A stretch of DNA of 64,000 nucleotides from an uncultured Bacilli bacterium (GCA_934168275.1 CAKPNA010000001.1:249034-313033); one strand, 5' to 3'. Numbered from the stretch's first letter, positions 31,414 through 43,575 are shown. Notes: generated from the letters alone by a model not told the origin. Made by a program: numbers and translations.

Positions 31414-31800
31414 CTAACGATTACCTCTTACATATTCTGCCAAGGAAATATCCGCCGGACACAAATCATAATTTATAATATCTTCTCTATCGACAAACCT
31501 ATATTCTGAATGGTCATGTAAATGAAACTCCCCTGCTATATATTTGCATTCATATAATCTTAAATCAACTGTTTTAGATGGATATTCGCAAATACTATTC
31601 GTAAGAAATCTAATTGCTTTCACTCTCATGTCAAACTCTTCCATTATCTCTCTTTCAATAGCCTGCATTTCTGTTTCATCTTTTTCCACCTTACCACCAG
31701 GAAACTCCCACTTACCAAGAACCTCCTCTGAACCCGTTGATCGACGTGCAATTAAATACTTCCCATCTTTCTCTATTAAAGCTGCAACTACTGTTATCAT
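31414..31800 (-). CDS. NUDIX hydrolase (MutT/NudG-like), chromosomal copy
   Basis: 128 aa with the Nudix box GKWEFPGGKVEKDETEMQAIEREIMEEF. Confidence 0.85.
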   Translation of the reverse strand: MITVVAALIEKDGKYLIARRSTGSEEVLGKWEFPGGKVEKDETEMQAIEREIMEEFDMRVKAIRFLTNSICEYPSKTVDLRLYECKYIAGEFHLHDHSEYRFVDREDIINYDLCPADISLAEYVRGNR

Positions 31801-34785: not shown

Positions 34786-34825
34786 CTATATTTATTTTAT
34801 GTGTGCGAGCAAAAATTAGAACTTT

Positions 34826-34842
34826 TGCTCTCTTCAGGGGGG
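34826..34842. repeat. Left copy of the island-flanking direct repeat (GCTCTCTTCAGGGGG preceded by hairpin gagcaaaa...ttttgctc)
   Basis: A 15-nt GC-rich identity with 43553-43567. Such a sequence is very unlikely by chance in 26%-GC DNA. Confidence 0.6.
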
Positions 34843-34944
34843 CCTGTTCTCTTCAGTTAGAAGAGACCAAATTGTGTTAAACCATTTAAATACGGGCCTT
34901 TTTATATTGGCATAAACCGTCATTTACCGTGGTTTTTTAGTATT

Positions 34945-34970
34945 TTTGTACCTAAATTGTACCTAAAAAA
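34945..34970. repeat. Tandem TGTACCTAAA direct repeats (left subterminal copy)
   Basis: tttttGTACCTAAAtTGTACCTAAAAaa. A near-identical pair occurs at 43474-43505. Confidence 0.6.
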
Positions 34971-35759: not shown

Positions 35760-36032
35760 ATGGTTAATAGCGTTGTTATTTCAGGATGCTTTAAAGGTAT
35801 TGAAAATGAAGAATTACTCTTAAAAGTTGAAGGTTTAGAAAACCATCAAATTGTCAGAATAAATATTTCAAAAGGTTTTCAAAAAGAATTAGATAATTAC
35901 ATCAAAGAAAATGATTTAATTGGCATAAAAGGTTATATTGAAGTTGATGATCTTCATAGAATTATAATTATTGCAACAAAAATTACTTTTATCAAATTAA
36001 AAAGCTCAGAATTAAATTTTCTGAGCTTTTAA
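35760..36032 (+). CDS. Small hypothetical protein, possibly OB-fold-like (island cargo)
   Basis: A strong RBS (aaaaaggagg) lies 5 nt before the ATG at 35760, giving ~90 aa (MVNSVVISGCFKGIENEELLLKVEGLENHQIVRINISKGF...). The pattern is weakly SSB/PriB-like. The gene ends in a hairpin shared with the convergent gene. Confidence 0.45.
   Translation: MVNSVVISGCFKGIENEELLLKVEGLENHQIVRINISKGFQKELDNYIKENDLIGIKGYIEVDDLHRIIIIATKITFIKLKSSELNFLSF
35999..36030. terminator. Bidirectional hairpin (aaaagctcaga-attaaatttt-ctgagctttt) shared by two convergent genes
   Basis: A perfect 10-11 bp stem with flanking A/T runs. It overlaps the last codons of both 35760..36032(+) and 36029..37309(-). Confidence 0.6.
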
Positions 36033-37309
36033 TTTGAATATATTTTATAACTTGTTGGAACAAAATTATAATCCGTATTATTGAATAGATCTTTACCTCT
36101 TACTATTTTTAGATAACGGTCTTTACTTTCACTATTAATTATCCTATACAAATAATAATTATCTATATGTTTTTTTGCAAAATCTATTTCATCAGACGTA
36201 ATATCAATTGGTGTTCCTTCATTACCCTTTGTTGATTTGACTTCAATATATTTTTCAACATATTCACCATTTTCATTTAATTCAAATGATAAAATATCAA
36301 ATCCTTCATTCTCTTTTTTATTATTAAAAAATTCTTCCATTTCCCTAACTTGTTCTTGGGCTTCTTCTTCCATTAAGCGCCTGATTTCATTTTCATATAC
36401 AACTTTCTCATTTATAATACCCTGATTTGTTTTTATGATTTCTTCAGCTATATAGTCTGGCTTTTTAGTTCTTTGTATTTTTTTATCTGTTTTCCTATAC
36501 TTTCTTATATTTATTTTACCTTCCCTATATTCCAAATCATTTTGTTCCTCAATCATATCAGAATATACTTTGCTTTCGATTTCAGTTATTTCATAAACTA
36601 TTTCGCTAAATTTTTCATCTTTTTCAAAATTATAATCATTTGGATATACAATTGATAAAGGAAATTTCCATACGAGTCTATCGTTTCCATCTATGTCCTT
36701 TTCTACAACTTGATATGGTTCAGCACATAGTTTAACTTGTCCTTCGAAAATATATTTTTTATTATTATCTTTGGAGAATAAATACATTGGTAAATCATTT
36801 TCGTTTGATTCATAAATTGTTTTATTGTTTTTTGTGATAGTTTGATCTCCTGTTAATCCCTCTCCAGTATATGTAATAAAACCGTTTTCAACTAAACTAT
36901 CACCATATACACCATTTTCTTCTGATGTTGTTAATACTAAACAGTTTAATGAATTAGTTTTCATTATGCCTGACTGACCACTTATTTTAAAAATTGCCAT
37001 AAGTTGATCTCGTGTAAATACATCACCAATATTCATATTGTTTATAAATTTTATTTGATCATAATATATTGATTTATATAGACCTGATCCTTTTTCTTTT
37101 AGAATGTATTCTTCTGTTCCAGAAAATGCTTCTGATAATACACTATGTGTTTCTAATGCTGCTCTTACTGAAGCACCACCATTATTTATACCTACATCTC
37201 TATTTTTGTCAACTTCTTCATAGATTTCTTTTAGTGGAATCCACTCTTTTCCAGTTCTTCTATGAATAGCAATAACTGAGTTATAAACAATCTCTCTTAA
37301 AGTACTCAT
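36029..37309 (-). CDS. SRA-like (5mC/5hmC-reader-type) domain fused to C-terminal PD-(D/E)xK nuclease-like DUF3883 domain; candidate modification-dependent (Type IV-like) restriction protein
   Basis: 426 aa. The central region (FITYTGEGLTGDQTITKNNKTIYESNENDLPMYLFSKDNNKKYIFEGQVKL) matches the SRA/YDG pattern (YTGeGg...dQ..gN.aL...PVrvfR...Y.YdGlY). The C-terminus (GFDILSFE...KYIEVKSTKGNEGTPIDITSDEIDFAKKHIDNYYLYRI) matches DUF3883 with a D...E-V-K core. The N-terminus is winged-helix-like. Confidence 0.55.
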   Translation of the reverse strand: MSTLREIVYNSVIAIHRRTGKEWIPLKEIYEEVDKNRDVGINNGGASVRAALETHSVLSEAFSGTEEYILKEKGSGLYKSIYYDQIKFINNMNIGDVFTRDQLMAIFKISGQSGIMKTNSLNCLVLTTSEENGVYGDSLVENGFITYTGEGLTGDQTITKNNKTIYESNENDLPMYLFSKDNNKKYIFEGQVKLCAEPYQVVEKDIDGNDRLVWKFPLSIVYPNDYNFEKDEKFSEIVYEITEIESKVYSDMIEEQNDLEYREGKINIRKYRKTDKKIQRTKKPDYIAEEIIKTNQGIINEKVVYENEIRRLMEEEAQEQVREMEEFFNNKKENEGFDILSFELNENGEYVEKYIEVKSTKGNEGTPIDITSDEIDFAKKHIDNYYLYRIINSESKDRYLKIVRGKDLFNNTDYNFVPTSYKIYSN

Positions 37310-37311
37310 AA

Positions 37312-37698
37312 TTATTTCTCCTTAACATATTTAGCAAGCGGAATATCAGCAGGTGCTAAATCATAATTTAATAAATTATCTTTTTCTACCCATTTATATT
37401 CTGAATGATCATGTAAATGAAAATCACCCGATATATAAGTACAACTATACAATTTTAAATCAACTGTCTTTTGAGGGTATTTGCATACATTATTTACTAA
37501 GAATTTATTTGCATGAACTTCTAATTCAAACTCTTCTTTAATTTCTCTTTCTATTGCGATTTTTTCGTCTTCGTCCTGTTTTACTTTACCACCAGGAAAT
37601 TCCCACTTGCCAAGTACGTTTGGATCTCCTGTAGAGCGTTTGGCTATTAAAACTTTATTATCTTTTTCTATTAACGCTGCTACAACATTTATAATCAT
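37312..37698 (-). CDS. NUDIX hydrolase (MutT/NudG-like), island copy, co-operonic with the SRA/PD-(D/E)xK gene
   Basis: 128 aa with the Nudix box GKWEFPGGKVKQDEDEKIAIEREIKEEF. It is about 65% identical in protein to the chromosomal copy at 31414..31800, and a 2-bp gap separates it from the downstream nuclease gene. Confidence 0.85.
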   Translation of the reverse strand: MIINVVAALIEKDNKVLIAKRSTGDPNVLGKWEFPGGKVKQDEDEKIAIEREIKEEFELEVHANKFLVNNVCKYPQKTVDLKLYSCTYISGDFHLHDHSEYKWVEKDNLLNYDLAPADIPLAKYVKEK

Positions 37699-37743
37699 AT
37701 TCTTTCACCATATTAATTATATCATAGTTTTTTATTATCTAAC

Positions 37744-37770
37744 AAAAAAAGGCTTATTTAAAGCCTTAGT
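37744..37770. terminator. Rho-independent terminator of the RM operon (minus strand)
   Basis: On the minus strand the stem is AAGGCTTT-aaat-AAGCCTT followed by TTTTTTTGTT. It overlaps the stop codon of the 591-aa gene. Confidence 0.65.
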
Positions 37771-39541
37771 AAACTATATACATAGGAGAATTCAAAGTTA
37801 TCTCTCCCTCTAGCGATCCTGATGAACTTTTAATATTATCAAATATTTCAAAAATAATTGGATTAGATGATAGTATTTTCCATACAATATTTCCTGTTCC
37901 ATTAATCATAATGTACATCAAATAATCAAAACGTGTTTCTCCGGGTGCCATAGGAGACTCTTGACCTCCTACACCGATATAACATTCTTTAATAACAATT
38001 GGAGTATATACTTTTTCAATTAATTGATTTAATTCTGCCATCTTTTCAGAATCATTTCTAACGGAAACCAATTTGTCAATGTCAGATCTTTGTGTTTCAT
38101 AAATTTTCTTTTTGTTTTCTTGTAAAAAAGCATCGTATTCATCGTCAGAACATTTGTGAACGCTAATTATATCTATGTAATTCCTTTTTGTTGTAAGTCC
38201 TGTTCCCTGAAGTATTTTTCTATCGCCTTGAGCACCAGGATAACTAACAGCTATATTTTTCATATTATTCATCAAAAATACACTCATAGAAGCAAAAGTA
38301 ACAACATCCTCATTTATCATATCATTAGGTAGTAACTTGGTTGGCATTTTGATTTTCGAAGTCATTAAACTTTTTTGTCTTTCTGTCAAATAATAATTAT
38401 CAACTAATTCTAAATTCCATTTAATTTCTACAATGACATTATCATTTAAATCGCAAAGAATTATCTTTTCACCAAAATGAAGTAAATTATTAATTACGGA
38501 TAAACTACTATTTAAACAATTCATTAAGTCATTATCATTGATAATAATTGTATTGCCTGTAATTAGTGCAGATTGAAATAAATTATGTGTATTAGTTGCC
38601 TTTTTAAATAAATCATACGCAATATCAAATGTGACAATATTATCATTAGGTATTACTTTAGCATCTATAATCTCCATTATTGCATCTTGATTGTTTCCTT
38701 CATATAATGATTTATATTTGTTTCTGTTTTCTCTTTGAACTAAAAATTTTACAATAGGTTTTTGATTATAATTTTTATTTAAGAATAAAAGCATTCCTCT
38801 TTCTGGATCCATTCCATGTCCATATCGATTAAACTTCAACATTAATTTTCCATCAGTTCCAACTCTAATTCTCGAAGAATTAGTAAATTCTAATCTTTCA
38901 TAATTATAATTAGAGTGTACATAATTTGAATACTTATTCTTTTCTGCTTCAAAATATTCATTATCACTAGCTGTCTTATTATATGATTCTATCATTCCAT
39001 TCATAATTTCTTTTAATTCATTTAAAAATGGAGGACAAGATATTTTTGTAATATCAGTCATAACTAAATCAGAGTTTTCAATCAAAGGCCAATCAATATG
39101 ATAATAAATTCCACCCATATTTAAAGTCGTATAGTATTCATGTTGAATTTTAATTTTTGTTCCTCCACCAAAATCAGTATTATTCATTTCTGAAGGTGAA
39201 ATCTTAATGCATGGTGTTTGATAATATGTACTCCAATACATAACATCATATCTCTGCATTATATGATCATCTGTTGGTACTGCAGTAGAAAATTCAATTG
39301 CAACAATAGGATGTTCTGTATCATCTTCTTCTATTATACTAATAAATCCATCAAAATCTTTATGTGAAAATAATTTTGAAATAATTGAATCATTACGGTA
39401 AGCAGAAAAATTATTCGGCTTCGTATAAATAATTTTATGATGTACATCTCGCAAAACATCATTGTCTGAAATATAATCTAATAAATATAGTCCCTGTTCA
39501 TAACATTCACAATATACTCTTAATTCTTTTATACTTCTCAT
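37766..39541 (-). CDS. Putative restriction endonuclease of a two-methyltransferase (Type IIS-like) RM operon
   Basis: 591 aa with no database-recognisable motif by eye; a possible PD-(D/E)xK-like core is DFDGF...VAIEFS. It is the last gene of the M1-M2-X operon, 11 bp after the M2 stop. Its size suits a Type IIS or other atypical Type II enzyme. Confidence 0.4.
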   Translation of the reverse strand: MRSIKELRVYCECYEQGLYLLDYISDNDVLRDVHHKIIYTKPNNFSAYRNDSIISKLFSHKDFDGFISIIEEDDTEHPIVAIEFSTAVPTDDHIMQRYDVMYWSTYYQTPCIKISPSEMNNTDFGGGTKIKIQHEYYTTLNMGGIYYHIDWPLIENSDLVMTDITKISCPPFLNELKEIMNGMIESYNKTASDNEYFEAEKNKYSNYVHSNYNYERLEFTNSSRIRVGTDGKLMLKFNRYGHGMDPERGMLLFLNKNYNQKPIVKFLVQRENRNKYKSLYEGNNQDAIMEIIDAKVIPNDNIVTFDIAYDLFKKATNTHNLFQSALITGNTIIINDNDLMNCLNSSLSVINNLLHFGEKIILCDLNDNVIVEIKWNLELVDNYYLTERQKSLMTSKIKMPTKLLPNDMINEDVVTFASMSVFLMNNMKNIAVSYPGAQGDRKILQGTGLTTKRNYIDIISVHKCSDDEYDAFLQENKKKIYETQRSDIDKLVSVRNDSEKMAELNQLIEKVYTPIVIKECYIGVGGQESPMAPGETRFDYLMYIMINGTGNIVWKILSSNPIIFEIFDNIKSSSGSLEGEITLNSPMYIVY

Positions 39542-39552
39542 ACTAAATACAT

Positions 39553-40656
39553 CTACACCTCCTCTATTTTTTCAAATACTAAAAAGTATTCCTTCTTTCC
39601 CTTAGTTCGAAAGCTTTGCTGAAAATTTCTACTTGTTTTATCCAACTCAGTATACTTTTCCTCGACTAATTTCCATTTTAATTTTTCAGCAATAAGCAGC
39701 GTATGTTCCCTGCTATCATATTTTTCACCAGCAATTTTTCCATCACCTATAATTATTACTATATGTGCTCCTACCTTAAGTGAATAATTTGCTGATAAAA
39801 ATATTTTATATAAATCATCAGTAAACTTACTTGCCTCTTTCTTTAAACTTGAGAATTCTCTTCTTGAACCTATCTCTTTTTCCATAACAGGTTTAAAATC
39901 ATATCCCAACCATAACATTCGATGTTTATGATATAAATAATAATCATATGTATTAGGGTATGGTGGAGAAGTGATTAAAAAATCCACACTATTTTTTTTC
40001 AATATTTTATTAATCAAATTTGAATCAGTTAAGTATACCATGGAATCACAATCTAATTTATTTGTTAATACTGCAATATCAAAAACATCTTTTAACTTAC
40101 TAATAAATGATTCTAATACTTCTTCAACTGATATGTCACCTTTATCCTTTGCAGAATATCTTGTATCACTTTCTTGGTTAGATAATGGTAATATTACAAT
40201 TGAAAATGCCAAATAACATAAGTCAACAATTCTTTCATCAGCATTGTATGCTTTTATACAATGTCTAATAGCTGATAAGCCAATAATTACATTTTCTCTA
40301 AACCAATGATTGATCGAATCATAATTTAATATTTCAAATTCTTCTTTATTAATATTTTTAAAAAATTCAGTCGTCTTTTTCTCAAAACTATTTATTTTTT
40401 TTAAATCTGATTTATTATAAGTATTAGTTTTTACTTTAGATATCTGATAAGCAACAGGATTAATATCAAAACCAACTGATCTTCTTTCTAACCATCTTGC
40501 CGCAAGAAGTGTTGTTCCACTTCCAACAAACGGATCTAAAATCACATCATTCTTTTTAGTATACTTATTGATATAGTATTCAAGCATTTCTGCAGTATAT
40601 TTTGCTGGATATGAGTGAATACGATCAATTTTATTTATATCTTCAATATTTATCAT
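39553..40656 (-). CDS. DNA methyltransferase (N4-cytosine/N6-adenine, SPPY type), M2
   Basis: 367 aa. Motif I (ILDPFVGSGTTLLAARWLERR) lies near the N-terminus and motif IV (ITSPPYPNTYDYY) about 190 aa later, an alpha-class order. Confidence 0.85.
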   Translation of the reverse strand: MINIEDINKIDRIHSYPAKYTAEMLEYYINKYTKKNDVILDPFVGSGTTLLAARWLERRSVGFDINPVAYQISKVKTNTYNKSDLKKINSFEKKTTEFFKNINKEEFEILNYDSINHWFRENVIIGLSAIRHCIKAYNADERIVDLCYLAFSIVILPLSNQESDTRYSAKDKGDISVEEVLESFISKLKDVFDIAVLTNKLDCDSMVYLTDSNLINKILKKNSVDFLITSPPYPNTYDYYLYHKHRMLWLGYDFKPVMEKEIGSRREFSSLKKEASKFTDDLYKIFLSANYSLKVGAHIVIIIGDGKIAGEKYDSREHTLLIAEKLKWKLVEEKYTELDKTSRNFQQSFRTKGKKEYFLVFEKIEEV

Positions 40657-41606
40657 TTTCTTAACACCACCAAATATGAATGATTTTGATTTATATAAAA
40701 TACTGAAGGATATCCCAATAAAACTAAACTTCTTTGTTCATTTTGATCCCATATTATTAAGTCATGATATTTAAATCCGGCTTTTTGCCCTAACTCAGCA
40801 ATTAAACCATGTAAATTTACATATGGAATTTTGTTTTTAATATCTCTAAAATCTTTAACCACCCAGATATTATATCCTCCAGGTTTTGTTTTTTGATAAA
40901 TCTTCTTCATTAGTTTTAAAACACTATCAGAATAATCTTTTATTGCCATGTTTCCAAAATCTTTCTCGTTTGAAGAATAAGGTTTAGCAGTAGAATTATT
41001 ATCTTCAACTATTCTGGAATGTTTATGTCTATTTTTTCTGTCATCTTCAACCTTTAATAATAAATCAGCATAAGGTGGAGATGTAAAAGTTAATTGTACA
41101 CTTTCATTTTTTATTTCTTTAATCTTTTCAAGACAGTCACCTTCTAAAATGTTGAAAGAAACATTAGATTTAAGTAAATTTTCTTCATGGTTTTCATATA
41201 TGTAGTCAATAAATTCTTTATTTAATTCAATACCAACGGAATTTCTTTCAAGCTTTTCTGCTCCAAACATAGTAGTCCCTGTACCAACAAACGGATCTAA
41301 AACAAGATCTCCTTTATTTGAATACATTGTAATAACTCTTTCAGCAAGTTTTTGAGGAAATGTCGCTCCATGAATTAAATGTTGCTTTTTTCTTGCAGAT
41401 GAAACATCATCCCATACACTTCTGCTACATAAAGTCCATTCTCTTGCTGTCATTCCATTAAAAGTTTTTTCTCTTTGAGACTTTTCTTTTTCAATGTCTT
41501 CGGGTGTTTTAGAATTATCTCTGATATTTGCTAGTTCTTTTTTTAATTCATTTATTTCTTCATTTTTCTGTTTAATCAATTTTAATATTTCTTTTTCAGT
41601 TTGCAT
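40653..41606 (-). CDS. DNA methyltransferase (N4-cytosine/N6-adenine, SPPY type), M1
   Basis: 317 aa with motif I (LVLDPFVGTGTTMFGAEKLERNSVGIE) and motif IV (FTSPPYADLL). Its stop overlaps the M2 start by 4 nt. Confidence 0.85.
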   Translation of the reverse strand: MQTEKEILKLIKQKNEEINELKKELANIRDNSKTPEDIEKEKSQREKTFNGMTAREWTLCSRSVWDDVSSARKKQHLIHGATFPQKLAERVITMYSNKGDLVLDPFVGTGTTMFGAEKLERNSVGIELNKEFIDYIYENHEENLLKSNVSFNILEGDCLEKIKEIKNESVQLTFTSPPYADLLLKVEDDRKNRHKHSRIVEDNNSTAKPYSSNEKDFGNMAIKDYSDSVLKLMKKIYQKTKPGGYNIWVVKDFRDIKNKIPYVNLHGLIAELGQKAGFKYHDLIIWDQNEQRSLVLLGYPSVFYINQNHSYLVVLRK

Positions 41607-41749
41607 AAGGTCACCTCATATAATAAAATATCACATCTAATTCTAAAAGTCCAGTCCCATTTTCTCTTCTATATAATTATACCATTAAAAAAGATGTTTT
41701 TCCTATAAAACTACAAAATATTTATATTATTTTTAATAATTTGTAGATT

Positions 41750-43128
41750 AAATTTGAAAGTGCACAATTGTTGTGCAGTTAGGTTTGTAATAGTATATAA
41801 TATCTTCTAAGCAACTTATTTGTCATTTAAAGGAGGAAAGTTACAATGACAAAATATAAACATCTTTCTTATGAAGATAGAAAAAATATAGAAGATGGAT
41901 TGAATCAAAATAAATCCATAAATCAAATTGCTAAAGATATTAACAAATCTCATTCTACTATTTTAAGAGAAATAGATAGAAATAAGGTTTATTATAAGCC
42001 AACAGCTTGGAATAATTGTTCCGCTGTTTCTGCTCCATGTCAGAAATTAGATAAAACACCCTATGTATGTAATGGCTGTAAATCAAGAAGCGGATGCAGA
42101 AAAATAAGATATACTTATTATGCTAGAAAAGCTAATGATGCTTATAAAGAACTAATTAGTTCATGTAGACAAGGTATAAGTTTAACTGAAGAAGAAATAT
42201 ATAATATTAATAAAATAATCACACCTCTCGTTAAAAAAGGTCAAACAATAAATCATTTATATATTAATCATCCTGAAGTTTTAAACTTTTCTAAAGTTTC
42301 TTTTTATAATTATATTAATAATGGCATATTTGAATTTAGACCTCTTGATTTCCCTAGAATTGTAAAATATAAAAAAAGAAAAGCAACAAAACGTAGAACA
42401 CGACAAGAAAGAGAAATATTAATAGGTAGAAGGTATGAAGATTTTATTAATTATATAAGTAAAAACCCAAATTTAAACATTGTCGAAATGGATACAGTTG
42501 AAGGACTTCAAACTGATTCAAAATGTATTCTTACTCTTTTTTTGGAGAAAATGAAACTTAATGCTTATGTTTTTATTGGAAAGTCAAACAACAGATGAAG
42601 TTACTAGAACATTTGAATATCTTCAAAAAGTTTTACAAGAAGATGATTATAAAAAACTATTTCAGGTTATTCTTACTGATAATGGGCATGAATTTTATGA
42701 TGTACTAAACATTGAATGCAATCATAAAATTGGAGAATACATCACACATGTTTTTTATTGTAATCCATCAGCTTCTTGGCAAAAAGGTGGAATTGAAAAA
42801 AATCATGAATTTATTAAATATGTTTTACCAAAGAAAACAACATTTGAGCATTTAACTCAAAACGATTGTAATATTGTTGCTAATAATATAAATAGTCTAT
42901 GTAGAGAATCGTTAAATGATAATTGTCCTTTTAAGGCAATGTTATTTCTATGTGATGAAAAGATTTTAAATACCTTAAATATGTATTATATTGACCAGAT
43001 AAAGTTCAATTAAATAGAAAACTATTAAAATAAAAAAAGATATTTATTACCCAAAACAAATATCTCAATGACAAATAAATTGCCTACCAATAATAATATA
43101 CTAAGCAGAATTGTGCACTTTCTTTTAA
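41750..43128 (+). mobile_element. IS30-family insertion sequence with imperfect terminal inverted repeats (core GAAAGTGCACAATT)
   Basis: The left end is ttaaatttGAAAGTGCACAATTgttgtgcag (41748-41780). The right end is ctaagcagAATTGTGCACTTTCttttaaaa (43101-43130), its reverse complement. The two ends enclose the IS30 transposase reading frames. Confidence 0.75.
41846..43013 (+). pseudogene. IS30-family DDE transposase, split into two overlapping frames (frameshift at a T7 run near 42536-42542)
   Basis: ORF1 (250 aa) has the N-terminal HTH (YKHLSYEDRKNIEDGLNQNKSINQIAKDINKSHSTILREIDRN) and the first D (NIVEMDTVEG). ORF2 (150 aa) has ILTDNGHEF and SWQKGGIEKNHEFIKYVLPK (the DDE E-region). The two overlap at 42561-42598. 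Confidence 0.75.
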
Positions 43129-43473: not shown

Positions 43474-43505
43474 TTTTTTGTACCTAAAAGTGTACCTAAA
43501 ATTAC
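43474..43505. repeat. Tandem TGTACCTAAA direct repeats (right subterminal copy)
   Basis: tttttttGTACCTAAAagTGTACCTAAAatta, in the same orientation as the 34945-34970 copy. Confidence 0.6.
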
Positions 43506-43543
43506 TTAATAGTTCTAAACCTCTATATTAATAAACAAAAATG

Positions 43544-43575
43544 AGAGCTTTCGCTCTCTTCAGGGGGTTTTGGTT
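43544..43575. terminator. recG rho-independent terminator; it contains the right copy of the island-flanking direct repeat GCTCTCTTCAGGGGG
   Basis: On the minus strand the stem is GAGAGC-gaaa-GCTCTC followed by ATTTTTGTTTATT. The + strand reads gagagctttcGCTCTCTTCAGGGGG. Confidence 0.65.

What the first reader, a model, noticed from the sequence alone, without database searches (positions are those of the whole stretch)
37766..41606. Three-gene RM operon: two SPPY-type methyltransferases and a 591-aa orphan-looking nuclease candidate (Type IIS-like arrangement)
M1 (317 aa) and M2 (367 aa) both carry DPFVG(T/S)GTT...LER followed by (T/F)SPPY, in a motif I-then-IV order. Their stop and start overlap, and the 591-aa ORF follows 11 bp later and ends in a strong terminator. 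Two separate MTases with one large endonuclease is the hallmark of Type IIS systems with asymmetric sites. The 591-aa protein has no obvious known nuclease signature and could be a new REase family. An IS30 copy sits immediately upstream of M1 and may have displaced a C-controller gene or altered the operon promoter.
Basis: partly seen in the sequence, partly recalled or inferred. Interest (0 to 1): 0.5.

Follow-up and report, generated by a model that had tools for sequence, protein, structure and literature searches.

The report
BsrI-type restriction-modification operon
This is an intact three-gene bacterial restriction-modification cassette whose "mystery" 591-aa protein is a relative of the known restriction enzyme BsrI, so it is an ordinary but previously unlabelled defence system, not a new nuclease family.

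Summary
Three co-oriented minus-strand genes are M1 (317 aa), M2 (367 aa) and a 591-aa ORF. M1 and M2 overlap by 4 nt, an 11-nt gap precedes the ORF, and a terminator hairpin follows it.

The Type IIS reading is supported. The "new nuclease family" reading is not.
- The 591-aa protein matches BsrI of Geobacillus stearothermophilus (ACTGG 1/-1): BLASTP E 7e-71, 31% identity over 535 aa.
- It matches PADLOC's Type II REase model PDLC03439 (E 4e-63).
- It carries both catalytic motifs of the BsmI/Mva1269I/BsrI group, invariant in close relatives: D64-X18-E83-X12-Q96R97 and D457-X17-E475-x-K477.

Orthologues of M1 and M2 accompany the nuclease gene in about 50 of 61 loci across bacteria and archaea. 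All carry SPPY, with motif I before motif IV.

Most likely mechanism: a monomeric enzyme with two active sites nicks each strand at an asymmetric site, and each methyltransferase protects one strand, probably as m4C. A specificity of ACTGG is plausible but unproven.

There is no evidence that the IS30-like element displaced a controller gene.

Verdict: new member of a known kind; low-to-moderate interest.

The parts
41676..41684 (-). Candidate promoter of the operon: TG-extended -10 box (TGgTATAAT). A GAGGTGA ribosome-binding site follows 5 nt before the M1 ATG.
   Evidence: Read directly from the sequence. The 86%-identity block shared with the IS-free relative L004 starts at 41685, beside this box. 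Function as a promoter is inferred.
40653..41606 (-). M1, a 317-aa DNA amino-methyltransferase. Motif I (DPFVGTGTT, residues 104-112) precedes motif IV (SPPY, residues 176-179).
   Evidence: Pfam PF01555 at 104 bits. PADLOC MTase_II PDLC03353 at E 7e-44. Orthologues in 56 loci all carry SPPY with motif I before motif IV.
39553..40656 (-). M2, a 367-aa DNA amino-methyltransferase. Motif I (DPFVGSGTT, residues 41-49) and motif IV (SPPY, residues 230-233) are about 180 residues apart, which leaves room for a target-recognition region. Its start overlaps the M1 stop (ATGA).
   Evidence: Pfam PF01555 at 86 bits. PADLOC MTase_II PDLC03364 at E 3.5e-47 over the full length. Orthologues in 60 loci all carry SPPY.
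39538..39552 (-). Five-codon mini-ORF (ATG TAT TTA GTA TGA). It starts right after the M2 stop, and its TGA overlaps the ATG of the nuclease gene. The GGAGG box sits 5 nt before the mini-ORF ATG but 16 nt before the nuclease ATG. It is a possible translational-coupling relay.
   Evidence: Read directly from the sequence. Not tested; it could be chance. Relatives L001 and L003 have a 4-nt gap or a direct overlap instead.
37766..39541 (-). R, a 591-aa (68.4 kDa) restriction endonuclease of the BsrI family: one polypeptide with two catalytic sites.
39251..39352 (-). Codons of the N-terminal catalytic motif (Cb, predicted bottom-strand site): D64-X18-E83-X12-Q96-R97.
   Evidence: All four residues are invariant in 38 relatives. 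The family profile aligns them to BsmI PD90-91...E109...Q122R123, and the score drops for the BsmI mutant chains that read IVF where the wild type reads IEF. The motif is defined in PMC1950550 and PMC11889245.
38111..38173 (-). Codons of the C-terminal catalytic motif (Ct, predicted top-strand site): D457-X17-E475-N-K477, a canonical PD-(D/E)XK motif.
   Evidence: These residues are invariant in 38 relatives. They align to BsrI D479...E494-C-K496. BsmI has the same spacing, 527-PD-X17-E-X-K-548 (PMC11889245).
37741..37767 (-). Intrinsic-terminator-like hairpin (7-bp stem, 5-nt loop, T7 run) that ends the operon.
   Evidence: A separate TG-extended promoter-like site for the next gene follows at 37745..37716.

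Best explanation
This is a Type IIS (subtype IIT, two-catalytic-site) restriction-modification cassette of the BsrI family.

The three genes are transcribed as one unit, from a promoter just upstream of M1 to the hairpin after R. M1 and M2 are translationally coupled.

R is a monomeric endonuclease with the architecture Cb~recognition region~Ct. The N-terminal site (D64, E83, Q96, R97; an EcoRI-like PD...E...QR variant) cuts the bottom strand. The C-terminal site (D457, E475, K477; a FokI-like PD-ExK motif) cuts the top strand. By analogy with BsmI and Mva1269I, the cuts are probably sequential and occur within or immediately beside a short asymmetric site, leaving a 2-nt 3' overhang.

Because the site is asymmetric, two methyltransferases are needed, one for each strand. 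Both carry SPPY at motif IV, which favours N4-methylcytosine.

The recognition site is most likely ACTGG/CCAGT, as for BsrI, or a close variant.

Shown: gene structure, homology to BsrI, fold match to BsmI, intact catalytic motifs, and conservation of the cassette.

Inferred: strand assignment, order of cleavage, type of methylation, specificity, and the promoter.
For: (1) BLASTP of R against BsrI [Geobacillus stearothermophilus] (P0367) gives E 7e-71 and 31% identity over 535 aa. P0367 is 599 aa and 69.4 kDa, the mass published for BsrI in PMC1950550.

(2) PADLOC model PDLC03439 'REase_II' matches R at E 3.9e-63 and matches all 74 family members tested.

(4) A 74-sequence family profile hits only BsmI in the whole PDB (E 1.6e-4), aligned exactly on PD...E...QR.

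(5) D64, E83, Q96, R97, D457, E475 and K477 are invariant in 38 relatives. Their spacing fits the published motifs PD-X13-18-E-X12-QR and PD-X12-17-EXK.

(6) An M1 orthologue (E 1e-80 to 1e-125) and an M2 orthologue (E 1e-48 to 1e-106) lie immediately next to the R gene in about 50 of 61 loci. These come from Helicobacter, Brachyspira, Campylobacter, Clostridia, Melainabacteria, Patescibacteria, Bacteroidota, Bathyarchaeia and Nanoarchaeota, and also Anoxybacillus.

(7) All 56 M1 and 60 M2 orthologues carry SPPY.

(8) Exact copies of all three proteins occur on 25 to 117 metagenomic contigs, so the cassette is maintained intact.
Against: - No experiment or methylome is available, so activity, specificity and methylated base are not shown.
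- Identity to BsrI is only 31%, and the last 90 or so residues do not align by BLASTP.
- I could not retrieve the BsrI methyltransferases to compare with M1 and M2.
- ACTGG/CCAGT is not depleted in the window itself (22 observed against 23.9 expected).
- SPPY is a rule of thumb for m4C, not proof.
Confidence: 0.9

Rival explanations
1. Same system type, but with a recognition sequence different from BsrI's ACTGG. It would be a new Type IIS specificity within the BsrI/BsmI group, probably still containing the RNTG core and cutting 2 nt after it.
For: - R is only 31% identical to BsrI.
- The enzymes of this group recognise different sites: ACTGG, GAATGC, GCAATG, GCAGTG and GGATG.
- The M2 orthologue in L069, next to the R homologue (P0131) that scores highest on the PADLOC REase model, is only 36% identical.
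- The window shows no depletion of ACTGG.
Against: - BsmI and Mva1269I share only 30.2% identity and are isoschizomers (PMC11889245).
- The patch aligned to BsmI's base-reading GNQAWQR is T-D-D-H-x-x-Q-R in both BsrI and the window protein. The central NRYGHxMDPERG loop is also near-identical in both.
- ACTGG/CCAGT has the lowest observed/expected ratio (0.69) among the 12 most depleted 5-mers in 378 kb around close relatives.
Confidence: 0.4
2. The 591-aa protein founds a new restriction-endonuclease family with no known nuclease signature.
For: There were no hits in Pfam, NCBIfam or a single-sequence PDB search. Public records label its relatives 'hypothetical protein'.
Against: There is direct homology to BsrI, a PADLOC REase_II hit, a match to the BsmI fold, and both group-defining catalytic motifs.
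Confidence: 0.02
3. The cassette is a decaying or domesticated remnant: the methyltransferases are active but R is inactive, or the IS30 insertion has silenced the operon.
For: A frameshifted IS30-like element lies 150 nt upstream. Some relatives are visibly degraded; for example, in L027 (Brachyspira alvinipulli) M2 is split and R is truncated.
Against: - All three ORFs are full length.
- Every invariant catalytic residue is present.
- The -10 box and ribosome-binding site are retained and shared with the IS-free relative.
- Identical proteins recur on many contigs.
Confidence: 0.07
4. M1 and/or M2 make N6-methyladenine rather than N4-methylcytosine.
For: PF01555 covers both activities. The nearest solved structures include the m6A enzymes MboIIA, CcrM and DpnA. 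In BsrDI, a relative, one methylase of the pair was assigned to N6A and the other to N4C.
Against: SPPY is invariant in all 116 orthologues. By established knowledge, enzymes in this sequence family that make m6A usually carry DPPY, and those that make m4C carry SPPY or SPPF. Both strands of ACTGG/CCAGT contain a cytosine.
Confidence: 0.25

Closest known systems
BsrI R-M system of Geobacillus (Bacillus) stearothermophilus (ACTGG 1/-1; UniRef E5Q8U1_GEOSE)
   Same: - Homologous over about 90% of its length (E 7e-71).
- Similar size: 591 aa and 68.4 kDa here, 599 aa and 69.4 kDa for BsrI.
- The same FD...E-X12-QR and D...E-x-K motifs.
- The same TDDHxxQR patch and NRYGHxMDPERG loop.
- Single polypeptide.
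   Different: - Only 31% identical, and the C-terminal 90 or so residues do not align by BLASTP.
- The host is a 25%-GC gut bacterium, not a thermophile.
- Specificity is untested.
- The gene order M1-M2-R on one strand differs from the convergent or divergent layouts found next to the R homologues closest to BsrI by sequence (Anoxybacillus L070, metagenomic L069).
BsmI / Mva1269I (GAATGC 1/-1), with crystal structures 9f38, 9ezd and others
   Same: - Two active sites with identical motif types. The E-to-QR (X12) and Ct D-to-E (X17) spacings are identical; the Cb D-to-E gap is X18 here against X17 in BsmI.
- The mechanism is presumably the same: a monomer that nicks the bottom strand and then the top strand.
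   Different: - About 10-13% identity.
- 85 residues shorter.
- The base-reading patch is T-D-D-H in place of G-N-Q-A, which suggests that different bases are read.
- Similarity is detectable only with a broad family profile (E 1.6e-4) or by structure.
BsrDI / BtsI (GCAATG / GCAGTG 2/0)
   Same: They have the same two catalytic motif types, and each is accompanied by two separate amino-methyltransferases (M1 and M2).
   Different: In these enzymes Cb and Ct sit on two separate subunits (a heterodimer). Here they are fused in one chain.
Beta-class N4/N6 DNA methyltransferases (PF01555; e.g. M.PvuII, M.MboIIA, TTHA0409)
   Same: Motif I (DPFxGxGTT) and motif IV (SPPY) are shared, with significant Pfam and PDB sequence matches.
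   Different: They are circularly permuted relative to these enzymes, with motif I before motif IV. Pfam and PDB alignments therefore come in two out-of-order pieces.

Membership tests
BsmI/Mva1269I/BsrI group of two-catalytic-site Type IIS (IIT) endonucleases | N-terminal non-canonical site (P/A/F)D-X13-18-E-X12-QR | tested here: met
   The motif is F63-D64-X18-E83-X12-Q96-R97. These residues are invariant in 38 relatives. The family profile aligns them to BsmI 90-123 and BLASTP aligns them to BsrI D58...E76...Q89R90.
BsmI/Mva1269I/BsrI group of two-catalytic-site Type IIS (IIT) endonucleases | C-terminal canonical site PD-X12-17-EXK | tested here: met
   The motif is I456-D457-X17-E475-N-K477, invariant in close relatives. 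It aligns to BsrI D479...E494-C-K496.
BsmI/Mva1269I/BsrI group of two-catalytic-site Type IIS (IIT) endonucleases | Significant sequence similarity to an experimentally characterised member | tested here: met
   BLASTP against BsrI gives E 7e-71 and 31% identity over 535 aa.
BsmI/Mva1269I/BsrI group of two-catalytic-site Type IIS (IIT) endonucleases | Three-domain fold: EcoRI-like domain, central domain, FokI-like domain | tested here: met
   [not shown]
BsmI/Mva1269I/BsrI group of two-catalytic-site Type IIS (IIT) endonucleases | Acts as a monomer; strand-specific, sequential nicking; cuts within or next to an asymmetric site and leaves a 2-nt 3' overhang | not testable with these tools
   This needs biochemistry. 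It is inferred from homology only.
BsrI isoschizomers (ACTGG 1/-1) | Recognises ACTGG | tested here: inconclusive
   ACTGG/CCAGT has an observed/expected ratio of 0.69 and ranks 10 of 512 in 378 kb flanking close relatives. However, other common Type IIS sites are similarly depleted, and the window itself shows none (22 observed against 23.9 expected). There was no non-host control set.
Type II R-M system | Endonuclease gene genetically linked to cognate methyltransferase gene(s) | tested here: met
   M1 and M2 orthologues lie adjacent to the R gene in about 50 of 61 loci across bacteria and archaea. Most exceptions are contig ends or truncated R genes; in L008 R is followed by two unrelated beta-class methyltransferases.
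PF01555 N6/N4 DNA methyltransferases | Score above the Pfam gathering threshold; AdoMet motif I and catalytic (S/D)PP(Y/F) motif IV present | tested here: met
   Scores are 104 and 86 bits against a cut-off of 26.7. Motifs were located.
Canonical beta-class topology (motif IV ... TRD ... motif I) | Motif IV lies N-terminal to motif I | tested here: not met
   Motif I precedes motif IV in M1, M2 and 109 orthologues. These are permuted relatives and should not be filed as beta-class.
N4-cytosine methyltransferases | Transfers methyl to N4 of cytosine | not testable with these tools
   Only the SPPY tetrapeptide, invariant in all orthologues, points this way.
C-protein-controlled R-M systems | Small HTH controller gene upstream, in the operon | tested here: not met
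   There is none in the window or in the IS-free relative L004. An XRE-like small ORF lies upstream of M1 in only 3 of about 50 loci: L020, L023 and L048.
IS30 family insertion sequence (neighbour) | HTH_38 N-terminus, IS30 DDE catalytic region, and terminal inverted repeats | tested here: met
   HTH_38 matches at E 4e-17. NF033563 matches at E 2e-15 to profile positions 163-266. Inverted repeats lie at 41757-41771 / 43109-43123 and at 41791-41827 / 43067-43103. The reading frame is broken (250 + 150 aa).

The most novel reading that the evidence does not exclude
The gut-bacterial clade to which this enzyme belongs recognises a sequence other than ACTGG. It has more than 300 clusters at 90% identity, none of them with a functional name. 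In that case it would add a new Type IIS specificity and, through D64A/E83A or D457A/E475A mutants, a new pair of programmable strand-specific nicking enzymes. Its two permuted SPPY methyltransferases would define a new m4C motif pair in gut methylomes.
Probability: 0.35. Interest if true: 0.35.

Novelty: new member of a known kind. Interest (0 to 1): 0.22.

Why it matters
The practical value is modest.

- **Annotation gap.** Pfam and NCBIfam have no model for the BsrI family. Hundreds of homologues in Helicobacter, Brachyspira, Campylobacter, gut Clostridia, candidate-phyla bacteria and archaea are therefore deposited as 'hypothetical protein'.
- **Route to nickases.** Linking these homologues to BsrI and BsmI gives their catalytic residues directly. 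That offers a route to new nicking enzymes and predicts an asymmetric, probably m4C, motif to look for in gut-metagenome methylomes.
- **No new biology.** Nothing here changes what is known about restriction-modification.

Tried and rejected
- **Single-sequence searches on R.** Pfam, NCBIfam and PDB searches found nothing. A 38-sequence profile against the PDB also found nothing meaningful. Only a broader 74-sequence profile reached BsmI.
- **Names of distant family members.** All were unnamed.
- **k-mer depletion as a test of specificity.** Results were suggestive for ACTGG in close-relative loci but not decisive. GGATG, GCAGC, GCATC and GAGTC are depleted too, there was no non-host control set, and the window itself shows no depletion.
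- **ACTGG as an autoregulatory site upstream of M1.** One site lies 49 nt before the ATG in the window, but only 7 of 51 loci have one within 160 nt, about the chance level. Rejected.
- **Retrieving the BsrI methyltransferases.**
  - The BsrI protein is not on any held contig.
  - A concatenated M1+M2 query returned only long fused methyltransferases and used the last homology search.
  - Literature searches for M.BsrI and for ACTGG m4C motifs returned nothing useful.
- **Anoxybacillus restriction literature.** Nothing relevant.
- **Origin of the PADLOC model.** The PADLOC papers do not say which REBASE entry seeded PDLC03439. Scoring family members placed the seed nearest P0131 and the Anoxybacillus protein P0128. 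Querying with P0128 then retrieved BsrI.
- **Other scans of the window.** Rfam and tRNA scans found nothing.
- **Host identity.** The host could not be named. Exact proteins occur in NCBI, ENA and Logan assemblies (longest contig 449,606 bp; several from Hadza gut metagenomes) without organism labels.


Full report
**1. What is in the sequence**

The minus strand of 37766..41606 holds three tightly packed ORFs: M1 at 40653..41606 (317 aa), M2 at 39553..40656 (367 aa) and a 591-aa ORF at 37766..39541.

- The M1 stop and M2 start overlap in ATGA.
- The third ORF starts 11 nt after the M2 stop.
- Upstream of M1 lie a GAGGTGA ribosome-binding site and a TG-extended -10 box (TGgTATAAT, 41684..41676).
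- The stop codon of the 591-aa ORF is embedded in a hairpin, AAGGCTT-TAAAT-AAGCCTT, followed by T7 (37767..37749).
- A separate promoter-like site (TTGTTA-18 nt-TATAAT with TG, 37745..37716) follows for the next gene.
- Both methyltransferases pass the Pfam PF01555 threshold.
- They carry DPFVG(T/S)GTT...LER and then TSPPY, so motif I precedes motif IV.
- This order is circularly permuted relative to the beta-class enzymes they match in the PDB (TTHA0409, M.PvuII, M.MboIIA, CcrM). For that reason the alignments come in out-of-order pieces.

**2. The 591-aa protein is not an orphan**

Taken alone, it has no hit in Pfam, NCBIfam or the PDB. It does have 311 full-length homologues of about 590 aa, almost all unnamed. 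A scan of 1.84 billion cluster representatives found only 248.

A 38-sequence alignment showed two clusters of invariant acidic and basic residues: D64, E83, Q96 and R97 near the N-terminus, and D457, E475 and K477 near the C-terminus.

An AlphaFold2 model built on that alignment is confident (pLDDT 91.7, pTM 0.90).

- In Foldseek against the PDB, the four top hits are all the Type IIS enzyme BsmI (E 1e-13, probability 1.0, full length). The next hit is ten orders of magnitude weaker.
- Most of these (BsaWI, AgeI, NgoMIV, EcoRI, SdaI, FokI) are among the per-domain neighbours reported for the two nuclease domains of BsmI (PMC11889245).

BsmI has two active sites in one chain: 90-PD-X17-E-X12-QR-123 for the bottom strand and 527-PD-X17-E-X-K-548 for the top strand. 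The window protein has D64-X18-E83-X12-Q96R97 and D457-X17-E475-N-K477.

A broader 74-sequence profile hits only BsmI in the whole PDB (E 1.6e-4) and aligns exactly PD...E...QR. The score falls for the mutant BsmI chains that read IVF where the wild type reads IEF.

**3. Direct link to a characterised enzyme**

- PADLOC's Type II REase model PDLC03439 (602 positions) matches the protein at E 3.9e-63 and matches all 74 family members tested.
- Scoring subgroups against this model pointed to a metagenomic protein and to an Anoxybacillus gonensis protein as the members closest to its seed.
- Using the Anoxybacillus protein as a query returned 'BsrI [Geobacillus stearothermophilus]' (UniRef E5Q8U1_GEOSE, 599 aa).
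- Its computed mass of 69.4 kDa equals the mass published for BsrI (PMC1950550).
- BLASTP of the window protein against BsrI gives E 7e-71 and 31% identity over 535 residues. Both catalytic motifs align, as do the TDDHxxQR patch and the NRYGHxMDPERG loop.
- BsrI (ACTGG 1/-1) is grouped in the literature with BsmI, Mva1269I, BtsCI and the heterodimers BsrDI and BtsI. All are Type IIS enzymes with two different catalytic sites. BsrDI and BtsI are each reported with two amino-methyltransferases.

The protein is therefore a BsrI-family restriction endonuclease.

**4. The cassette is a conserved mobile module**

A scan of one genome per GTDB species found 61 loci. They come from Helicobacter, Brachyspira, Campylobacter, many gut Clostridia, Melainabacteria, Patescibacteria, Bacteroidota, Actinomycetota, Bathyarchaeia, Nanoarchaeota and others.

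- In about 50 of the 61 loci, an M1 orthologue and an M2 orthologue lie next to the nuclease gene. They usually sit immediately upstream on the same strand (M1-M2-R) and occasionally follow it (R-M1-M2). Most exceptions are contig ends or truncated copies.
- Helicobacter cinaedi (L008) pairs the nuclease with two unrelated beta-class methyltransferases instead.
- Near the thermophile branch the methyltransferase pair is convergent or divergent with R, but the proteins are still M1 and M2 orthologues (50% and 36% identity).
- All 56 M1 and 60 M2 orthologues have SPPY.
- In the window lineage, a block from the -10 box of M1 to the stop of the downstream Nudix gene is 86% identical to a relative whose recG is only 67% identical. 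This indicates lateral exchange.

**5. Mechanism**

The following is inferred from homology; none of it is shown here.

- R binds an asymmetric 5-6-bp site as a monomer.
- The N-terminal EcoRI-like site nicks the bottom strand.
- The C-terminal FokI-like site then nicks the top strand 2 nt after a TG, leaving a 2-nt 3' overhang.
- M1 and M2 each methylate one strand, probably at N4 of cytosine.

In BsmI, the patch GNQAWQR reads the two central adenines. The aligned patch here and in BsrI is TDDHxxQR. This would fit reading of other bases, possibly a cytosine amino group, but that is speculation.

Is the site ACTGG?

- In favour: BsmI and Mva1269I are isoschizomers at 30.2% identity, and the recognition-candidate loops are conserved between BsrI and this protein.
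- In favour, weakly: ACTGG/CCAGT has an observed/expected ratio of 0.69 (rank 10 of 512) in 378 kb around close relatives, and 23 of 30 loci fall below expectation.
- Against, or neutral: other common Type IIS sites are similarly depleted, there was no control set, and the window itself shows no depletion.

I put ACTGG at roughly 0.5-0.6.

**6. The IS30 idea**

The element spans about 41757..43123. It has inverted repeats at 41757-41771 / 43109-43123 and at 41791-41827 / 43067-43103. It is divergent from M1, and its transposase is split into ORFs of 250 and 150 aa. The same arrangement is present in a 99%-identical contig.

The IS-free relative L004 carries a protease-like gene and a small lysine-rich ORF there, not a controller gene. 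Homology to the window begins at the -10 box. Small XRE-type ORFs upstream of M1 exist in only 3 of about 50 loci.

Nothing suggests that a lost C-protein or a disrupted promoter is involved.

**7. Verdict**

The Type IIS interpretation is supported. The 'new nuclease family' and 'displaced controller' ideas are not.

This is a new, unannotated member of the BsrI family in an uncultured low-GC gut bacterium. The closest contigs come from Hadza gut metagenomes.

Interest is low to moderate. It points to an annotation gap in Pfam and NCBIfam and to a possible source of new nicking enzymes, but it adds no new biology.

Noticed in passing
window 36029..37698 (minus strand): Nudix 37312..37698, SRA+NOV_C 36029..37309; also L004:9844-11399: Directly after the R-M terminator lies a two-gene unit with its own promoter. 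The first gene is a NudG/MutT-like Nudix hydrolase (NF007834 pyrimidine dNTP diphosphatase, E 2e-29; PADLOC candidate PDC-S07, E 2e-43). The second is coupled to it across a 2-nt gap and encodes an SRA-domain nuclease (SAD_SRA plus NOV_C/DUF3883; PADLOC PDC-S36, with a weak mREase_IV hit). In the 89%-identical relative L004, the Nudix gene is conserved but the partner is SRA-HNH, so the nuclease domain has been swapped. The 86%-identity block ends exactly at the Nudix stop. This may be a Type IV (5mC-directed) restriction enzyme paired with a nucleotide-pool sanitiser that keeps 5-methyl-dCTP out of host DNA. Distant relatives of the BsrI-like cassette do not carry this pair.
   Followed up: partly
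window 41757..43123: An IS30-family element lies between recG and the operon. Its inverted repeats are GAAAGTGCACAATTG / CAATTGTGCACTTTC, plus 37-nt arms at 78% complementarity. The transposase is split into overlapping ORFs of 250 aa (HTH_38) and 150 aa (IS30 DDE C-terminus). The same split occurs in a 99%-identical metagenomic contig (L006).
   Followed up: partly
window 43475..43567 and 34810..34966 (minus strand); L004:11578-11669: Two short sequence elements bracket the roughly 8.5-kb defence island (IS30, M1, M2, R, Nudix, SRA nuclease and two small ORFs). One is CCCCCTGAAGAGAGCRAAAG, a terminator-like hairpin, at 43548-43567 and 34822-34841 (0 expected by chance). The other is a pair of TTAGGTACA 9-mers at 43479-43499 and 34947-34966. 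In relative L004 the same 93-nt element sits just downstream of the SRA-HNH gene. They may be island boundary or recombination sites. No integrase gene was seen.
   Followed up: partly
window 39538..39552 (minus strand): A mini-ORF, ATG-TAT-TTA-GTA-TGA, lies between M2 and R. It starts one base after the M2 stop and its stop overlaps the R start codon. The GGAGG box is spaced optimally for the mini-ORF rather than for R. It may delay or couple translation of R, or it may be chance.
   Followed up: no
P0115 (748 aa, JGI): One homologue of the nuclease is fused to MarR-type winged-helix domains (PF01047, PF12802) and is annotated as a MarR regulator. It may be a built-in controller fused to a BsrI-like endonuclease.
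   Followed up: no
L008 (Helicobacter cinaedi), L052, L059, L069, L070 (Anoxybacillus gonensis): The cassette layout varies. In H. cinaedi the nuclease is followed by two unrelated beta-class methyltransferases. L052 and L059 have the order R-M1-M2. In L069 and Anoxybacillus the M1-M2 pair is divergent or convergent with R. UniRef labels the Anoxybacillus nuclease 'NERD domain-containing protein'.
   Followed up: partly
proteins P0422-P0436: Single-chain methyltransferases of 820-970 aa (one of 618 aa) each match part of the concatenated Anoxybacillus M1-like + M2-like query. Their size suggests fused double methyltransferases, but which half they match was not checked. One is from Bacillus cereus.
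   Followed up: no
window 31414..31800 (minus strand): A second 128-aa Nudix ORF lies about 5.5 kb from the defence-linked one. Its counterpart in L072 carries the Pfam NUDIX domain. It may be the housekeeping MutT paralogue.
   Followed up: no
window, whole: ACTGG/CCAGT sites are strongly strand-asymmetric: 6 ACTGG against 16 CCAGT on the plus strand. This probably reflects the strong GC skew of the region.
   Followed up: no
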